A DNA stretch of 63,433 nt, counting the filler, from Collodictyon triciliatum (taxonomy: Eukaryota): the NCBI GenBank assembly GCA_043381765.1. It is 52 parts of 52 records of this genome, joined end to end, with 100 filler letters (N's around TTAATTAATTAA, not from the genome) between each part and the next. Parts side by side here need not be neighbours in the genome. Positions count along the whole stretch, not along the records: positions 30,614 to 31,735 come from JBHJMP010012216.1; 51 more parts are not named here. One strand, 5' to 3'. Both the position numbers and the translations under genes were made by a program. Positions 6,134-59,782 of this stretch are shown piece after piece; the first letter of the stretch is position 1, and each line of letters begins with the position of its first letter. Under the pieces are notes generated by a model. It was not told the DNA's origin. It was given only the letters and a program-made list of their open reading frames with translations, and ran no database searches.

Positions 6134-7258
6134 CCTGATGGAAAACACGAGCCGAGACGGGGAGATCGGCGCAAGCCGCGACCCGTCGAAGGCTTTGCAA
6201 GTTGCAGCCAGCTCTTCTGGTTCCAACACTGGCGCGGAGAACTCCCGAGTGGCACGCAAGTCTAGGAAGACTCATGCAAGGAAGCCGCCTGCAAGTCTGT
6301 CTGAGCGGACAGTATTTTTGCACGGGGTCGAGCAAGTCGTTTATAACAAGAACAAGGCCCGCAGGCTCACAGATGCGCTCGCCTCCTTCCTGAAAGCGAA
6401 CAAACTTTGGGAAGAGTCCATCCAATTGCGCTTACCGGACAACGAAGGTCTTTGCCTGATCGCCTTCCGCACTGCAGAGAACGCCCGAAAGCTTCTGGAA
6501 CTAAAGCAGGTAAGTTTGAGCGATATTACAATCAGCTTCGGCAGAAGTAAACCAACAGAGAACTCGATGATGCTCTACCAACTAACGCTGGACGTGTGGC
6601 CGCAACTCCTTCGTGAGGAGCTGAAGCCGTTCAGACCGACCCACGTGGAGATCAAAAAGGACAAAGGCTTCTTCACAGGCACGGCCGTGGTGAAGCTTCT
6701 CTACCACAAGAACCAGCTCCCTGTAAAGTTACGGTCATGGGCAAAAAGTGTCCAAAGCGCATCCTCAAGAAGCGTCCGCCAGCCGCGAACAACGAACGAC
6801 AAGTAAAAGCCCCGCAAAAGAATGCACCTGCCAAGCAGACAAGCAGCAACGGGGTCAAGGAAGCCAAGGCCAGGCAACAACTGAGCCCGCAAGACTCACA
6901 GCAGATACGCGCATACAGCAACAGCAACAATGACATGGAAGGAAATCTCGGTTCCTCTTCAGAATCCTCGCACTCGAGCCATCCACCGCCAATACCGGAC
7001 AAGCTCGTACATCGCAAGACCCAAGAGCAGCGCATCTCCAAACCCCGAAAAAAAATCCCCCTTAAACTACCCATTCAGACTGACGTGAATATGGTTAACA
7101 TAGGAGGCATAAAGGCAGTCTTCGTTACTTATCCGAAAGGATACTTCAAAGCGAAGGCAACACAAGAACCAGCGCCCACCAAAGATAGTCTGTTTATCCT
7201 GCCCCAGCCCGTCGCACCGAGAACCAAGGAGCAAGAGCAAACAGCACAAGTCGAATCC
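6134..7258 (+). mobile_element. Repeat family A, longest copy: LINE ORF1-like protein with a 1-nt frameshift near 6730
   Basis: ORFs 6138-6806 and 6737-7258 join if the T present in the copies at ~10725 and ~22065 (AAGTTTACG versus AAGTTACG) is restored; two RRM-like alpha/beta blocks then a basic disordered tail; intronless and multicopy. Confidence 0.8.
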
Positions 7259-8583: not shown

Positions 8584-9333
8584 GACGAGGGAACAGTTGA
8601 TTATTTGTATGATAAGGCAAAACAACAGGAAATGCGCAATTTTGATGCCTGGTATGCCACGATTTTTGATCACCGCGACCCAGCGCAACTTAAATTGTCG
8701 CGCGAAATTAATCCTGGATGGTTTGACCGGAGAGTCAAAGCTATTGACGAATCGCTTGATTTTCAGAAAAAAATTGCAAGGATGAATCTGATGGGCATAA
8801 GAAACCAGGAAGATGTGTTGACGGCATATGCTATAGCCACAGGACGCATAGAACCAGCTTTGTATAATACAAACTTTATGCAGCCTACACAACAAGACCA
8901 AGAGTTGAGAGATCGTCAATACGTTAAGGGAATGTTTGCGCCCAGATTGTTTGATGATTACATCAAACCGGCACAGCAATTAGTTGGTGCAACAGATCCA
9001 CTGAATCATTCTAATTTCGCAGCGCCTACAGGAGGAAATATCAATCTAGCAACGTTCAAACAAATGATGCGGGGACGACAAACTGCACCAATATTGACTG
9101 GAGGACTTTCACAAGAGAAAGTGCAAAACATTACGGCTAAAGAAAATAGTATATTACGCCCATACCAAACAGATTTAAGTATGAGTAAAGGAAGAGCAAA
9201 TCGAACTGGAGCAAATAGAAGTGCATCATTTGGAGTTGCTGAATCGTTGTATTTACCAACACCAGGAGCACAACAAAGACCAGCAAGAGGAACAGGTACA
9301 ATGGTACAGGATTATTTAGGCTTAGATCAATAA
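8584..9333 (+). CDS. Intronless hypothetical protein, virus-like (5' partial, 249 codons open from the contig edge)
   Basis: Open from 8584 (DEGTVDYLYDKAKQQEMRNFDAWYATIFDHRDP...) to TAA 9333; A-rich codons, no introns or microsatellites, only 38 bp to the next gene. Confidence 0.8.
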   Translation, partial: DEGTVDYLYDKAKQQEMRNFDAWYATIFDHRDPAQLKLSREINPGWFDRRVKAIDESLDFQKKIARMNLMGIRNQEDVLTAYAIATGRIEPALYNTNFMQPTQQDQELRDRQYVKGMFAPRLFDDYIKPAQQLVGATDPLNHSNFAAPTGGNINLATFKQMMRGRQTAPILTGGLSQEKVQNITAKENSILRPYQTDLSMSKGRANRTGANRSASFGVAESLYLPTPGAQQRPARGTGTMVQDYLGLDQ

Positions 9334-9807: not shown

Positions 9808-10931
9808 TATTCGAGACTGACAGAAGAGCGGATAAAGTTGTCGGGTCGATGAAAGTACGCACATGGCGGTTACTTATCAAATTGATTCCGACGAGTCCTT
9901 TCAACCGTCTATCTCAGACAAGGTTTACATCCTATTTCATTCTACAGGATGAGTCTTTTGAGGAGACAACGGGTCACTTTCCTTGCGGTTTCTTGCTGTA
10001 CGACTCAGGCAGAAAGCGATACATCGTTGTTTGTCTGGTATTATCGGAAGTGGCACTTGACCGTCCCCTGGTTTCGGAACCATGCGTAGCCGGCAGTGGA
10101 CTTTGCTTAACCGGAGTATGGCCATGCGTTTGTAGTTTAAGAAACATACGCTCCTGCTTGCTCGGACTGTCTTTAGTGTGTGAAGTTCCAAGCTTGGATT
10201 CGGCTTGTGGTGTCTGCTCTTGCTCCTTGGTTCTCGGTGCGACGGGTTGGGACAGGATAAACAGACTATCTTTGGTGGGCGCTGGCTCTTGTGTTGCCTT
10301 CGGTTTGGAGTATCCTTTTGAATAAGTAACGAAGACTGCCTTGTTGCTTCCTATGTTAATCATATTCACGTCAGTCTGAATGGGTAATTTAAGGGGGGAT
10401 TTCTTTTGGGGTTTGGAGATGCGCTGCTCTTGGGTCTTGCGATGTACGGTCTTGTCCGGTGTTGGCGGTGGAGGGCTCGAGTGCGAGGATTCTGAAGAGG
10501 AACCGAGATATCCTTCCATGTCATCATCGCTGTCGCTGTATGCGCGTATCTGCTGTGAGTCTTGTGGACAATGTTGTTGCCTGGCCTTGGCTTCCTTGAC
10601 CCCGTTGCTGCTTGTCTGCTTGGCGGGTGTATTATTTTTCGGGGCTTTTACTTGTCGTTCGTTGTTCGCGGCTGGCGGACGCTCTTTGAGGATGCGCTTC
10701 GGACACTTTTTGCCCATAGTCGTAAACTTTGCAGGGAGCTGGCTCTTGTGGCAAAGAAGCTTCACCGGCTGTATACTTGAAGAAGCCTTTGTCCTTTTTG
10801 ATATCCACGTGGGTCGGTCTGAACTGCTTCAGCTCCTCACGAAGGAGTTGTGACCACACGTCCAGCGGTAGTTGTTAAAGCAACACCGAGGTCTCTGTTG
10901 GTTTACTTCTGCTGAAGCTGATTGTAATATC
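9808..10931 (-). mobile_element. Repeat family A copy (central and C-terminal ORF1 plus downstream segment), with frameshifts
   Basis: Reverse complement matches 6521-7258 and 7583-8108. Confidence 0.88.
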
Positions 10932-23832: not shown

Positions 23833-24392
23833 TCAGTCCAAAGAACAACCGTGGGACGCTCCAGGAGCGTTCTCAGAAACCTCCCCTGAACCCTTTGTCC
23901 GGAGGATATTTAACGAGTCCGTCGACTCTTTAATAGGTTGAGAATCATACAAAAAGCTTATAACAGAATAAAAGGACATCCCCTTACAATTAGAGAGCGT
24001 CTTGATTTTATATTTTTGATTATTCGTAGTGATGAAGTTGCGGCAGATGTCTTCCAGCTCCTTTAGCCTTTGGGGATTCAGCAAAGTGCCTATCATGTTA
24101 TAGATAAGGGTCGACACCATCACTTGGTTCCACAACCTTACTTTACCCACATCCGAGAGATAAAAGTTGCTCCACATTGATATTTTCGACTTGATGTCCT
24201 CAACTAGGCTTGTCCATTTGTTATCTGATTGTGTACCGAAGATGATACCAAGATGCTTGAGTGGATGTGACAGTGGCTTCCACACAATGTTTCCTGGAAA
24301 CACAAGTCCGTCCTGAGAACCGAAAAGAATTCCATCTGTTTTTTCGTAGTTGATTTTCCCGCTGACAGCTCGTGTGTATTCCTGCATGCATT
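23833..24392 (-). mobile_element. Non-LTR retrotransposon ORF2 fragment (RT C-terminus/thumb, L1/Tx1-like)
   Basis: YTRAVSGKINYEKT...LKHLGIIFG...W..LVEDIKSKISMWSNFYLSDVGKVRLWNQVMVSTLIY follows the L1-clade SGxKINxxK / YLGI / WxxxxLSxxGK pattern. Confidence 0.85.
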
Positions 24393-30613: not shown

Positions 30614-30895
30614 CTTTGTATTCATTTTCTTAATGTCCAGGTCCCCCAGAGTGCTCAGCCCCCTACCGAGGTAATTGGCTGCCTTGATGGTGCTGACCAG
30701 GGGGTTGGTGATAGTCTGGATGGCGGGCTTCACTCCGGTGCTCGTCAATAAATTGTCGACTAACCCCATGCTGGCGTCGTCGAGTTTTACATATGCGTTG
30801 TTGAGTCCTTCTAGTCGTCGTATGGCTCTGTCAGTCGATGTAGTAAGAAACCGCCCTACCCCTCGCGCTCCTCGCTGTGCGTAATTTACAATCAT
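30614..30895 (-). CDS. Small virus-like hypothetical protein (3' partial), homologous to 58666-58784
   Basis: MIVNYAQRGARGVGRFLTTSTDRAIRRLEGLNNAYVKLD...; intronless and divergent from the next ORF. Confidence 0.8.
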
Positions 30896-30927
30896 ACTGG
30901 GGCACAGATAAAAATCTAGGGTATAGC
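30896..30927. promoter_or_regulatory. 32-bp divergent intergenic spacer, candidate bidirectional viral promoter
   Basis: Lies between ATG 30895(-) and ATG 30928(+); contains ATAAAAATCTAG; similar in length and motif to 58785-58817. Confidence 0.55.
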
Positions 30928-31735
30928 ATGAGCAGATTCACTCCAGGCCAAAAAGATAAAATAGAGGGAGACATATCAGATGCTTTGCTATTTGAGGACA
31001 AAGCAAATACAAGAACATCAGGAAAGATTATAACTAAATACAGGACGAAATTAAAAAGCCTATGGCATGGAAAAGACAAGGGGCGCTCAGAAAACTTACT
31101 ATTACCAAGCTTAAAAGAATACACAAACCCTGACGGTGAGAAATATTTTATAAAGCGTGTACCGACACAACACGCAGCAATTGTAAATCAAATTGCCGTA
31201 CTGCGTTTTCCAAGAGACACGCCTGGAGAATCATACGCTGCAGCAGAAGAAGAAATAAAGAAAGCATTAAAAGAAGATGAAGAATTTCAGCACAGATACT
31301 TTAGAAATATATGGGCACTTACACAAAAATCAGACGGTGGAGGACACCATTTAACATCATGGTCTAATTTAAATACTGCGTTCTCATATGCATATTTTTA
31401 TGCTGGAATAGAAGCTGAAAATATTCCTGATCCTTCACCGCAATCACTCCCGCCCAAGAAAGTTCCTGTGCGTTCAGCCTCTGGTGAAGATTCAATGTTT
31501 TCGAGTGCAACTGCAGTCCCAATAGAACAAGGCCAAAAACCTTTAGAAGTAATACCCCAGGGTATTGACAAAGAAGAAGACGAAGAAAGAGAAGAAGAAG
31601 AAGAAGACGAAGAACAAGAAGAAGAAGAAGGTGAATGGGAGCCTGATATTACTGAAGACGAAATGATACAAAGACGACTTACACTACGGGAACAATACAA
31701 AAGAAAGAAGGAAGTTTTTCTGATGCCCTATCTTC
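30928..31735 (+). CDS. Intronless hypothetical protein with an acidic tract, virus-like (3' partial)
   Basis: 269 open codons from MSRFTPGQKDK; A-rich codons; poly-E/D stretch near 31570-31630. Confidence 0.75.
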
Positions 31736-41321: not shown

Positions 41322-41711
41322 CGTTTTCCGAAGAAGAGTAGTATAGACAAGGACAGTTCCTTTTTATATGTGAATGTATTGTCTGAGTTTATCGAAAGCT
41401 TGCACGAATTACCGTTTCCCGAAACTCCAGATTACACAATTGAAAGGCCTGATGTCGCACTCACTACGTCGTATGTTTCCTGTGCTGCATTTATTTCGTT
41501 CAAAGNNNNNNNNNNNNNNNNNNNNNNNNNNNNNNNNNNNNNNNNNNNNTTAATTAATTAANNNNNNNNNNNNNNNNNNNNNNNNNNNNNNNNNNNNNNN
41601 NNNNNCGTAATGGACCGCCTTTGGTTCTTCAGGCGAAAGAAAAATGGCGACGGTGCTCCGTATGAGATGGGACGTCGTGAGCGCCATTCTCCTTTGTTGT
41701 TCAGGACGGCT

Positions 41712-42725
41712 GGACATTCTATACATGATGTATTTCCATATGAGCCAGAGTTTGAATTGAATGTGCCTTTTGGACAAGCATAGCATGATTGAATGTCTTT
41801 TGTGATTCCTTCCTTTTGATAGAATCCTGATAAACACAAGCTGCATGTCGCACCACCAACTGAGCTGTAGCTCCCATTCGGACATGAGATGCAAGATGAT
41901 TCAAATGAGCCAGGTTTATTGTTGAATGTACCCGCTGGACATGATGTGCATGATGCTTGACCATCTCTATCATTCCAAGTACCTTGTGGACATTCAATAC
42001 ATGATGAGTTCCCATATGAGCCGGAGTTTGAGTTGAATGTGCCTTTTGGACAAGCATAGCAGGATTGAATGTCTTTTGGGATTCCTTCTTTTTGATAGAA
42101 TCCTGATAAACATAAGCTGCATGATGCACTTCCACTTAAGCTGTAGCTCCCATTTGGACATGAAATGCATAGTAATTGATTCAATGAGCCAGTTTTATTG
42201 TTGAATGTACCAACTGGACATGATGTGCATGATGCTTGACCATCTCTATCATTCCAAGTACCTTTTGCGCATTCAATACATGATTTGTTTCCATATGAGC
42301 CGGAGTTTGAGTTGAATGTGCCTTTTGGACAAGCATAGCATGATTCGGAGTCTTTTGTGATTCCTTCCTTTTGATAGAATCCTGATAAGCATAAGCTGCA
42401 TGATGCGCTTCTCTCTGAGCTGTAGCTCCCATTTGGACATGAAATGCATAGTAATTGATTGAATGAAGCAGTTTTGTCGTTGAATGTACCAGCTGGACAT
42501 GATGTGCATGATGCTTGACCATCTCTATCATTCCAAGTACCTTGTGGACATTCATTACATGATGAGTTCCCATATGAGCCGGAGTTTGAGTTGAATGTAC
42601 CTTTTGGACAAGCATAGCATGATTTCGAGTCTTTTGTGATTCCTTCCTTTTGATAGAATCCTGATAAGCATAAGCTGCATGATGCGCTTCTCTCTGAGCT
42701 GTAGCTCCCATTTGGACATGAAATG
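41712..42725 (-). CDS. Cysteine-rich repeat surface protein (GCC2/GCC3, ephrin-receptor-like CPxG repeats), internal fragment
   Basis: Frame open across the contig; about 3.6 near-identical DNA super-repeats with periods 279, 279 and 276 bp, built of CxxCPxGT(F/W)N modules. Confidence 0.88.
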
Positions 42726-58665: not shown

Positions 58666-58784
58666 GCCCGATTCAAATCCGAGTAGGCTTTGTCTAATCG
58701 TTGCAGTTTGTTTAGTGCGTTGTCCGTGTGCCGGGTAAGAAAGCGACCAACACCTCTGCTTGCTTTTCTAACATCAACAATCAT
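58666..58784 (-). CDS. Small virus-like hypothetical protein (3' partial), homologous to 30614-30895; absent from the ORF track
   Basis: Hand translation MIVDVRKASRGVGRFLTRHTDNALNKLQRLDKAYSDLNR. Confidence 0.8.
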
Positions 58785-58817
58785 ACATTAGCCAAGAAAT
58801 TTTATATAGGTTATATT

Positions 58818-59782
58818 ATGAGCTTAAAATATAGAACTACTGCTGAGTTAAATAAACAGAAACTAGGTTTAGGTTTTTACAGAGATTTTTTTACTAAACC
58901 TGACACTAAAATGCTATTTACTGTAGATACATCTAGTTTAATGGGGTTAAAATTTAATTATATATTGTTCTTTCTTTCAAAAAATATTATTGCAAAAAAT
59001 GATTTTCATACTTTATATTATGAAGCTAGACGAAATGCAGAGCAAAATCAATATGATAAGGAAGACTTTATAGAATTAGAGAACTTGTATGAAAAGGCCG
59101 TGAAAGCCAAATTGCCAAAGGAAGCTGATACTTTAGACCAAGAACAAATTGTGGGAAGGACTGATTTATTAGAACCATATCACATAACAGTAGACCCGGA
59201 CCCGGAACCAGTATTTCAATCAAGTCGTAAAATATATAATAAAGAAAATCTGGAACTTTTTGAGAAATTTATAGAAAATGCAGAAGAGGATAATCCACAA
59301 ATTCCAAAATGGAAATATATATTGGCCTTTAAAACAGACCCTCCAGAAGATATGACTCCTGAACAAATGATACAGGCTATAAAAGATGAGGTGTATGAAG
59401 CTGAAGATCCAGATAGACGTAAAAATTATAATCAAAAAGAAGTTATTGGTATACAAAGAAATATAGATAAATTATTAAAAGATAATCCTGATGATTCTAG
59501 TCTTAAATTGGCAGTGCTAAATTATAAAGTGGTATTTGCTATGGAACCTCCAGATGGCATGACTAAAACAGAAATGATTAATGATACAGAAGAAAGATGG
59601 CGACGAATCGAAAAAGAACGTAAGGAAGAAGCGGAACAAATAGAAAAAGAATTGGAACAATTGCCAAAACAGAAGGAAGTAGAAGATAAGGGACGATTGG
59701 ATTCAACAATGGATGAGCTAAATGCGTATTTTGCACAATTTGACAAGGCAATAGAAAGCCCCGAAGGAGAGGAAAGATTGCA
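58818..59782 (+). CDS. Intronless acidic/charged hypothetical protein, virus-like (3' partial)
   Basis: About 321 open codons from MSLKYRTT; AT-rich; internal repeat AFKTDPPEDMTPEQMI / VFAMEPPDGMTKTEMI; starts 33 bp from the divergent ORF. Confidence 0.8.

What the first reader, a model, noticed from the sequence alone, without database searches (positions are those of the whole stretch)
30614..31735. Conserved head-to-head gene module on two contigs: candidate undescribed endogenous DNA virus family
Seen: the minus ORF at 30895 (MIVNYAQRGARGVGRFLTTSTDRAIRRLEGLNNAYVKLD) has a clear homolog at 58784 that the ORF track missed (MIVDVRKASRGVGRFLTRHTDNALNKLQRLDKAYSDLN). In both contigs it lies 32-33 bp from a divergent, long, intronless acidic ORF that starts ATG AGC. 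Both contigs lack the introns and microsatellites typical of the host contigs. Known: such compact intronless layouts are typical of virophages, Polintons/Polinton-like viruses and other small dsDNA viruses that integrate in protist genomes. Inference: at least two diverged members of one viral or mobile family. No hallmark gene is present on these fragments.
Basis: partly seen in the sequence, partly recalled or inferred. Interest (0 to 1): 0.85.

Follow-up and report, generated by a model that had tools for sequence, protein, structure and literature searches.

The report
Fragments of two Polinton-like viruses
Two short contigs in this eukaryotic assembly are pieces of two related small DNA viruses of the Polinton-like kind, also seen in freshwater metagenomes; whether they are integrated in the host genome cannot be told from these fragments.

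Summary
Contig A (30614-31735) and contig B (58666-59782) each carry the start of a small minus-strand gene. The two products are 49% identical over 39 aa (E 1e-10). Each small gene lies 32-33 nt from a divergent long ORF that starts ATGAGC.

The small protein belongs to a family of 114-119 aa all-alpha proteins found in metagenomes. Nine metagenome loci repeat the head-to-head layout. In them the small gene is followed by a 510-550 aa protein that folds as a double jelly-roll capsid protein, with top matches to iridovirus, Sputnik and PBCV-1 capsid proteins. One locus (L003) also matches the poxvirus A32 packaging-ATPase family, and a second (L004) has a weak primase-like match. The divergent ORF is the variable N-terminus of a 1340-1520 aa protein with a conserved C-terminal domain. 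A promoter-like motif, four A/T then TCT, 9-11 nt before the ATG, precedes the small gene, the capsid gene and three other genes.

The viral reading, with two diverged members, is therefore supported: these are pieces of roughly 17 kb Polinton-like viruses. "Endogenous" is not shown, because there is no host junction and no coverage data. "Undescribed family" cannot be tested here. I rate it a new member of a known kind, of moderate interest.

The parts
30614..30895 (-). Contig A: first 94 codons of the small (119 aa in relatives) all-alpha protein gene, cut by the contig end
   Evidence: Translation. It is 98.9% identical (93/94) to the L006 and L007 proteins. The family was found (P0005 E 1.4e-22, P0006 1.3e-14, P0008 9e-4). 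Substitutions fall mainly at third codon positions.
30896..30927 (.). Contig A: 32-nt divergent intergenic region with two back-to-back promoter-like motifs (AGAT-A run-ATCT), each 10 nt from its ATG
   Evidence: TTTATCT-N10-ATG faces the small gene and AAAATCT-N10-ATG faces the large ORF.
30928..31735 (+). Contig A: first 269 codons of the large variable protein
   Evidence: Translation. It is 76% identical over all 269 aa to P0057 (1523 aa). P0057 ends in the C-terminal domain shared with P0012 (37% over 172 aa, E 1e-18). An 8688-nt metagenome contig covers 30614-31439 and 31647-31735.
58666..58784 (-). Contig B: first 39 codons of the small protein gene, cut by the contig end
   Evidence: Translation. 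It is 100% identical over 40 aa to the L005 protein, with 1 nt difference in 117 nt.
58785..58817 (.). Contig B: 33-nt divergent intergenic region; AATTTCT-N10-ATG faces the small gene and an AT-rich TATATA core faces the large ORF
   Evidence: It differs from the L005 intergenic region at 2 positions, read by eye.
58818..59782 (+). Contig B: first 321 codons of the large variable protein
   Evidence: Translation. It is 48% identical over 96 aa to the N-terminal fragment of the divergent ORF of L005. It holds the same position as the 1342-1503 aa ORFs of L002, L003, L004 and L009.

Best explanation
Contigs A and B are fragments of two diverged members of one lineage of small dsDNA viruses of the Polinton-like kind, with a double jelly-roll capsid and a genome of probably about 17 kb. 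Each fragment spans the junction of two divergent transcription units in the structural-gene region.

Rightwards, in the virus's own orientation, a promoter-like element lies 9-11 nt before the ATG. It is an A/T run ending in TCT. It precedes a 119-aa all-helical protein and, about 25 nt after that gene's stop, the major capsid protein gene, which has its own copy of the element.

Leftwards, from the same 32-36 nt spacer, a 1340-1520 aa protein is read. It has a fast-changing N-terminal part (the piece seen in the window), a long middle part that looks like coiled coil, and a conserved C-terminal domain of about 170 aa.

Shown: the homology, the synteny, the capsid fold, the ATPase match and the motif statistics.

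Inferred:
- The small protein is a minor virion or assembly protein co-expressed with the capsid protein.
- The large protein is a fibre- or spike-like virion protein, anchored by its conserved C-terminus, with the variable N-terminus exposed.
- The TCT element is a late-type promoter, possibly read by a helper giant virus as in virophages.

The physical state in this assembly, integrated or free or co-sampled, is open.
For: (1) Family. A phmmer search of 1.84 billion representatives found 5 hits at E<=0.001. Three of them are 114-119 aa proteins aligned end to end; the other two are spurious repeat proteins.

(2) Synteny. All 9 metagenome loci have a divergent ORF upstream of the small gene. 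The gap is 32-36 nt in 8 of them and about 100 nt in L001. A 510-550 aa ORF follows the small gene wherever sequence continues: L001, L002, L003, L005, L007 and L008.

(3) Capsid. The P0013 model has pLDDT 74.9 and pTM 0.76. Foldseek against PDB gives 240 matches at E<=0.001. The top ones are the Singapore grouper iridovirus capsid (5.9e-13), Sputnik 3j26_A (6.7e-12), Faustovirus, PBCV-1 and vaccinia D13. In BFVD the top matches are capsid proteins of eukaryotic viruses and virophages.

(4) Other genes. L003:1279-2001(-) matches Pox_A32 at 2.4e-9, 37.4 bits against a cutoff of 22.8, and phrog_2666 at 9.5e-15. A neighbouring ORF has weak primase matches: PriCT_2 at 0.004 and phrog_3022 at 0.0017.

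(5) Tie to the window. The small proteins of L006 and L007 are 98.9% identical to contig A's, and L005's is 100% identical to contig B's. P0057 links contig A's long ORF to the conserved C-terminal domain.

(6) Motif. W4-TCT-N9-11-ATG occurs 5 times in L003, and all 5 sit before ORFs of 90 codons or more (300 shuffles: mean 0.03, max 1). In L004, 4 of 7 occurrences do. It also precedes both genes of contig A and the small gene of contig B. In the whole window 16 occurrences were found, and only the 2 on contig A lead into ORFs of 60 codons or more.

(7) Genome size. The longest contigs of four capsid-protein clusters are 16905, 17173, 17175 and 17215 nt.

(8) From papers, passages seen: mavirus-type virophages carry 'TCTA' flanked by AT-rich sequence, which is the CroV late promoter (PMC8547959). 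The Polinton-like virus PgVV uses its giant virus's early promoter (bioRxiv 10.1101/2022.07.28.501842).
Against: - No hallmark gene lies on the window's own contigs. The assignment rests on relatives.
- The penton protein was not identified.
- The small protein has no significant fold match: 0 of 500 BFVD hits at E<=0.001. Its model is only moderate, pLDDT 71.7.
- The motif was derived from some of the same loci it was counted on, so the count is partly circular. Only L001, L005, L006, L008, L009 and the window scan are independent of the derivation.
- The large ORFs of the contig-B clade (L002, L003, L004, contig B) lack the TCT core on their side.
- The roles proposed for the small and large proteins are inference from position, composition and pattern of conservation only.
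- No integrase, protease or polymerase was found in the 10-11 kb held. About 2.5-3.5 kb of each long contig could not be fetched.
Confidence: 0.8

Rival explanations
1. The fragments are integrated (endogenous) copies of these viruses in the nuclear genome of the sequenced eukaryote.
For: - Two distinct lineages of the same virus group occur in one eukaryotic assembly.
- The other contigs of the window are eukaryotic: LIM, RING, LRR and Ephrin_rec_like domains.
- Integration of Polinton-like viruses and virophages in protist genomes is common according to PMC10120064 (search listing and abstract start only) and PMC7805220 (passages).
Against: - There is no junction, target-site duplication, terminal repeat or host sequence on either contig.
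- The contigs end in unique coding sequence, not in the microsatellites at which many host contigs break.
- No integrase was found in the parts of relatives that are held.
- Relatives at 91-99% nucleotide identity occur in freshwater metagenomes as separate contigs, and cluster contig lengths recur near 17.2 kb. That pattern fits free genomes.
Confidence: 0.3
2. The fragments come from free virus particles, or from an infection of another organism, co-sampled with the sequenced eukaryote. They would then be environmental or culture carry-over with no integration.
For: - The contigs are short, unique and viral throughout.
- Near-identical small genes are found in lake and freshwater metagenome contigs.
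- Two different lineages occur together, as expected for a mixed natural virus population.
Against: Nothing speaks directly against it. Coverage and source data are not available.
Confidence: 0.5
3. The lineage is a tailless, membrane-containing double jelly-roll phage of bacteria (tectivirus-like), present as bacterial contamination.
For: The packaging ATPase also matches a PHROG family of phage 'terminase large subunit' (phrog_2666, 9.5e-15). One BFVD hit, at rank 36, is a phage capsid protein (Gluconobacter phage GC1, 1.2e-8).
Against: - The best fold matches are all capsid proteins of eukaryotic viruses.
- Of the 7 proteins scanned against PHROGs, 2 had any match: the ATPase, and a weak primase match.
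- The pattern scan of 185,579 prokaryote genomes found no relative of the capsid protein.
- The tblastn search of P0004 against 50,697 phage records found nothing.
- Genes are preceded by an A/T-TCT element and not by a Shine-Dalgarno-like sequence.
Confidence: 0.05
4. The lineage is a virophage in the strict sense (class Maveriviricetes), not a Polinton-like virus.
For: Sputnik's capsid protein is among the top PDB fold matches. Virophage capsid proteins appear in BFVD. The TCT(A) motif after an AT-rich run recalls the mavirus/CroV late promoter.
Against: - No cysteine protease was found among the ORFs scanned. It is a required marker according to PMC9952930 (passages).
- Fold matches to iridovirus, asfarvirus-like and ascovirus capsid proteins are as good or better.
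- The genome parts held are incomplete.
Confidence: 0.1

Closest known systems
Polinton-like viruses (PLVs; Yutin et al. 2015, PMC4642659, search listing only; Bellas and Sommaruga 2021, PMC7805220, passages)
   Same: Small dsDNA genome of about 17 kb, by recurrent contig length. Double jelly-roll major capsid protein of the eukaryotic-virus type. FtsK-HerA / A32-like packaging ATPase. A primase-like replication gene in place of a protein-primed polymerase in the part seen. Abundant in freshwater metagenomes.
   Different: The penton protein is not yet identified. The 119-aa helical protein directly upstream of the capsid gene, and the divergent 1340-1520 aa protein with a variable N-terminus, have no named counterpart in any library searched. 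The capsid family was not found in IMG/VR by pattern scan.
Mavirus-type virophages and their endogenous forms (EMALEs; PMC8547959, passages)
   Same: Short gene-proximal promoter elements with a TCT(A) core after an AT-rich run before most genes. Compact genome. Same capsid fold and ATPase class.
   Different: No protease, rve integrase or protein-primed polymerase was seen in the parts held. The core here is TCT followed by A, G, T or C, not strictly TCTA. Dependence on a giant virus is untested.
PgVV / Gezel-14T (bioRxiv 10.1101/2022.07.28.501842, passages)
   Same: A Polinton-like virus with virion fibre-like proteins that uses giant-virus promoters.
   Different: That virus uses the AAAATTGA early motif and has all genes in one orientation. 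Here the structural block is divergent, with a TCT motif.

Membership tests
Polinton-like viruses | Double jelly-roll major capsid protein | tested here: met
   Met in relatives, not on the window contigs. The P0013 model matches iridovirus, Sputnik, Faustovirus, PBCV-1 and D13 capsid proteins at E 6e-13 to 1e-9, and eukaryotic-virus capsid proteins in BFVD. The same gene follows the small gene in L007, whose small gene is 91% nucleotide-identical to contig A's.
Polinton-like viruses | FtsK-HerA / A32-like DNA-packaging ATPase | tested here: met
   L003:1279-2001(-) matches Pox_A32 at 2.4e-9, 37.4 bits against a cutoff of 22.8, and phrog_2666 at 9.5e-15. It was scanned only in the contig-B-type clade; L004 carries a near-identical ORF.
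Polinton-like viruses | Single jelly-roll penton (minor capsid) protein | tested here: inconclusive
   The 254-aa ORF (L003:2624-3385) is a candidate by size, position and shared promoter motif. It has no Pfam, PHROG or PDB sequence match.
Polinton-like viruses | Genome of roughly 14-40 kb, linear with terminal inverted repeats or circular | tested here: inconclusive
   The longest cluster contigs are 16905-17215 nt. No terminal repeats were seen in the parts held. Full contigs could not be fetched.
Polinton-like viruses | Eukaryotic host, or integration in a eukaryotic genome | not testable with these tools
   No whole assembly is held. The source run is not indexed. The contigs have no host flank.
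Virophages (Maveriviricetes) | Adenain-like maturation cysteine protease (required marker, PMC9952930) | tested here: inconclusive
   No protease family was found among the 12 locus ORFs scanned. About 2.5-3.5 kb of each long contig is not held.
Polintons / Mavericks | Protein-primed family B polymerase and rve integrase | tested here: inconclusive
   Neither was found in the ORFs scanned. A primase-like ORF is present instead (PriCT_2 0.004; phrog_3022 0.0017). The genomes are incomplete.
Tectivirus-like phages | Bacterial host, phage gene families | tested here: not met
   No relative was found in the prokaryote genome scan. 5 of 7 proteins have no PHROG match. The top fold matches are eukaryotic viruses.

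The most novel reading that the evidence does not exclude
Both contigs are integrated copies of two lineages of a so-far uncatalogued freshwater clade of Polinton-like viruses, which would make this eukaryote the first known host of the clade.

The clade's signature would be a divergent structural module. A bidirectional, virophage-like TCT promoter drives a small helical virion protein plus the capsid protein on one side. On the other side it drives a giant fibre-like protein whose N-terminal head is exchanged or diversified right at the start codon, as an arms-race cassette for recognising a host or a giant virus.
Probability: 0.2. Interest if true: 0.6.

Novelty: new member of a known kind. 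Interest (0 to 1): 0.4.

Why it matters
According to the abstracts listed, Polinton-like viruses are very abundant in water, and the replication strategies of most are unknown. Finding two lineages of one clade inside a eukaryotic assembly gives a concrete candidate host, which can be checked with the raw reads.

The module itself is a compact, testable case of three things:
- a 32-36 nt bidirectional viral promoter;
- a conserved small protein coupled to the capsid gene;
- a very large protein whose N-terminus changes abruptly between otherwise near-identical genomes.

If the TCT element is a giant-virus late promoter, the clade would be virophage-like and might act as an inducible defence of its host.

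Tried and rejected
- Pfam and PHROG scans of the four window proteins gave nothing above cutoffs.
- Pattern scans of IMG/VR found no relative, with the small protein, its alignment and the capsid alignment. These are pattern-based, so this is weak evidence of absence.
- The GTDB genome scan with the capsid alignment found none.
- tblastn of P0004 against phage records found none.
- The search for homologous proteins with P0004, longer proteins only, found none.
- The protein atlas gave no usable hit for P0004. For the small protein the best score was 0.83, below the 0.9 lead level.
- The two long hits (P0007, P0009) are FliK and DUF7507 repeat proteins, rejected as compositional or repeat matches.
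- The small-protein profile against PDB sequences gave a best E of 0.005 to an ATP synthase OSCP subunit, not pursued.
- The small-protein model against BFVD gave no hit at E<=0.001.
- Complex prediction of the capsid protein with the small protein returned no verdict.
- The look-up of sequencing runs found no run with more than 12% of contig A's words and listed no RNA holder.
- Rfam found no family in the window.
- The search of earlier findings returned nothing for this genome or for these sequences.
- My first motif spacing (N11-13) was wrong and gave no gene-linked hits. It was corrected to N9-11.
- The identity of the host organism could not be established with the tools at hand.

Full report
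**What the window is.** The window is not one locus. It is 52 contigs of 1117-1131 nt, joined by N/TTAATTAATTAA spacers and ordered roughly by length. Other contigs carry eukaryotic domains (LIM, RING, LRR, Ephrin_rec_like) and many microsatellites, often at contig ends. No whole assembly is held for this window.

**Check of the observation.** Contig A (30614-31735) has a minus-strand ORF from 30895 to the contig end, 94 codons long. Contig B (58666-59782) has one from 58784, 39 codons long.
- The two products are 19/39 identical, E 1e-10.
- In a tblastn of the whole window they find each other at E 4e-7 and 7e-8, and nothing else below 0.28.
- The divergent ORFs start with ATGAGC 32 and 33 nt away and stay open to the contig ends, 269 and 321 codons.
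- The two long ORFs are not detectably similar to each other.
- Neither contig has microsatellites, apart from a coding GAA run in A.

**The small protein is a real, conserved gene.** phmmer against 1.84 billion representative proteins gave 5 hits at E<=0.001.
- Three are full-length matches of 114-119 aa: P0005 at 1.4e-22, P0006 at 1.3e-14 and P0008 at 9e-4.
- The two long hits are FliK and DUF7507 repeat proteins, and I reject them.
- Against locus L007, contig A has 23 nucleotide differences in 94 codons. Twenty are at third positions, and there is one amino-acid change.
- The model is all-helical (helices 2-41, 45-53, 55-84, 93-118; pLDDT 71.7). It has no significant fold match in BFVD, and no Pfam, PHROG or atlas lead.

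**Genomic context in relatives.** A pattern scan of metagenome contigs with a three-sequence alignment returned 9 loci.
- All 9 have a divergent ORF upstream of the small gene. The gap is 32-36 nt in 8 loci and about 100 nt in L001.
- Wherever sequence continues downstream (L001, L002, L003, L005, L007, L008), a 510-550 aa ORF follows.
- That ORF (P0013) has 34 relatives besides itself, all unnamed or 'hypothetical protein'.
- With a 23-sequence alignment it folds with pLDDT 74.9 and pTM 0.76. It matches double jelly-roll capsid proteins: Singapore grouper iridovirus 5.9e-13, Sputnik 6.7e-12, then Faustovirus, PBCV-1 and vaccinia D13. In BFVD it matches capsid proteins of asfarvirus-like viruses, ascoviruses, mimivirids, pithoviruses and virophages.
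- L003 also carries a Pox_A32-type ATPase: 2.4e-9, above the Pfam cutoff, and phrog_2666 at 9.5e-15.
- L004 carries a weakly primase-like ORF.
- The longest contigs of four capsid clusters are 16.9-17.2 kb, which suggests a genome of about that size.

**Link to the window.**
- The small proteins of L006 and L007 are 93/94 identical to contig A's. L005's is identical to contig B's over 40 aa.
- Contig A's long ORF is 76% identical over all 269 aa to the N-terminus of P0057, which is 1523 aa.
- P0057 ends in the same C-terminal domain as the 1368-aa P0012 of L003: 37% over 172 aa, E 1e-18. P0012 and P0014 share that domain too.
- A freshwater-metagenome contig of 8688 nt covers contig A from 30614 to 31439, with 56 differences, and from 31647 to 31735.

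So the long ORFs in the window are the N-termini of one positional gene family, with variable heads and a conserved tail. The capsid gene should lie just beyond the left ends of both contigs.

**Abrupt change at the start codon of the large gene.**
- Contig A and L007 are 91% identical in nucleotides up to about 5 nt past the large ORF's ATG. Beyond that there is no similarity.
- A 650-nt contig of run X1 likewise follows contig A to 30934 and then runs on unlike it.
- Contig B and L005 differ at 1 of 117 nt in the small gene and at 2 positions in the spacer (by eye). Their large-ORF N-termini are only 48% identical in protein.

This points to recombination or very fast divergence of that N-terminal part. 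Which of the two is not resolved.

**Promoter-like motif.** Upstream regions show an A/T run ending in TCT, 9-11 nt before the ATG. Counted as W4-TCT-N9-11-ATG:
- L003 has 5 occurrences, all directly before ORFs of 90 codons or more: the 116-aa, 254-aa, 807-aa, small and capsid genes. In 300 shuffles the mean was 0.03 and the maximum 1.
- In L004, 4 of 7 occurrences are before such ORFs.
- The motif also precedes the small and capsid genes of L001 (capsid only), L002, L005, L007 and L008, both genes of contig A, and the small gene of contig B.
- In the whole window there are 16 occurrences, and only the two on contig A lead into ORFs of 60 codons or more.

The motif was derived from some of these same loci, so the count is partly circular.

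In contig A the two motifs sit back to back as AGAT-A run-ATCT. In the contig-B clade the side facing the large gene has a TATATA-like core instead.

According to passages of PMC8547959, mavirus-type virophages use 'TCTA' flanked by AT-rich sequence, which is the late promoter of their giant virus. According to passages of bioRxiv 10.1101/2022.07.28.501842, the Polinton-like virus PgVV uses its giant virus's early promoter. The likeness here is a lead, not a test.

**Interpretation.** The evidence places both contigs in a lineage of small double jelly-roll viruses of the Polinton-like kind.
- Of the defining features, capsid fold and ATPase are met in relatives.
- The penton, genome ends, host and integration are open.
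- A strict virophage assignment lacks the required protease (for the criterion; for the scans). The genomes are incomplete, so this is inconclusive.
- A phage origin is unlikely.
- 'Endogenous' is neither supported nor excluded.

I give about 0.3 to integration and about 0.5 to co-sampled free or infecting virus.

The roles I propose are inferences. The small protein would be a capsid-associated minor or assembly protein. The large protein would be a fibre-like virion protein with a conserved anchor and a variable head. Both rest on gene position, shared promoter, composition and pattern of conservation. The one complex prediction gave no verdict.

**Novelty and score.** Polinton-like viruses are a known and very diverse kind. 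This lineage has unnamed genes and was not found in IMG/VR by pattern scans. I could not compare it with the published sets, because their supplements are closed. I rate it a new member of a known kind, with interest 0.4. The main value is a possible host link and a neat divergent structural module with a hypervariable giant gene.

Noticed in passing
L003:890-1046 and L003:2418-2574; L002:6300-6537: A 157-nt direct repeat (99% identical) brackets the ATPase and 116-aa genes in L003. By eye its reverse complement resembles the tail of L002 after the capsid gene. L004 has only a 35-nt gap at the second site. It could be a mini-element or a genome-end repeat.
   Followed up: partly
L002:6227-6400 and L007:2594-2760: A short ORF with a hydrophobic N-terminal stretch and a cysteine pair follows the capsid gene in both clades. 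This was read by eye from the sequence printed. It may be a small membrane protein.
   Followed up: no
L007:2788-2867: Two exact 39-nt tandem copies lie at the very end of the contig. They may be a terminal repeat or an assembly artefact.
   Followed up: no
window 6134-7258 and 9808-10931: Two host-type contigs carry clearly paralogous ORFs, both with a shared serine- and lysine-rich region, on opposite strands (by eye). This is probably a repeated gene or a transposable element of the host.
   Followed up: no
window 8584-9333: A 249-codon ORF is open at the contig start, without introns, and has no Pfam or PHROG match. It is not related to the loci ORFs at E<=1e-3. Its origin is unknown.
   Followed up: partly
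window 41606-42725: A 279-nt tandem repeat (3.6 copies) encodes eight Ephrin_rec_like cysteine-rich repeats. It is an ordinary eukaryotic surface-protein gene.
   Followed up: partly
window 23270-24392: The minus-strand ORF looks by eye like the tail of a retroelement reverse transcriptase, but it had no Pfam hit at E<=0.01.
   Followed up: partly
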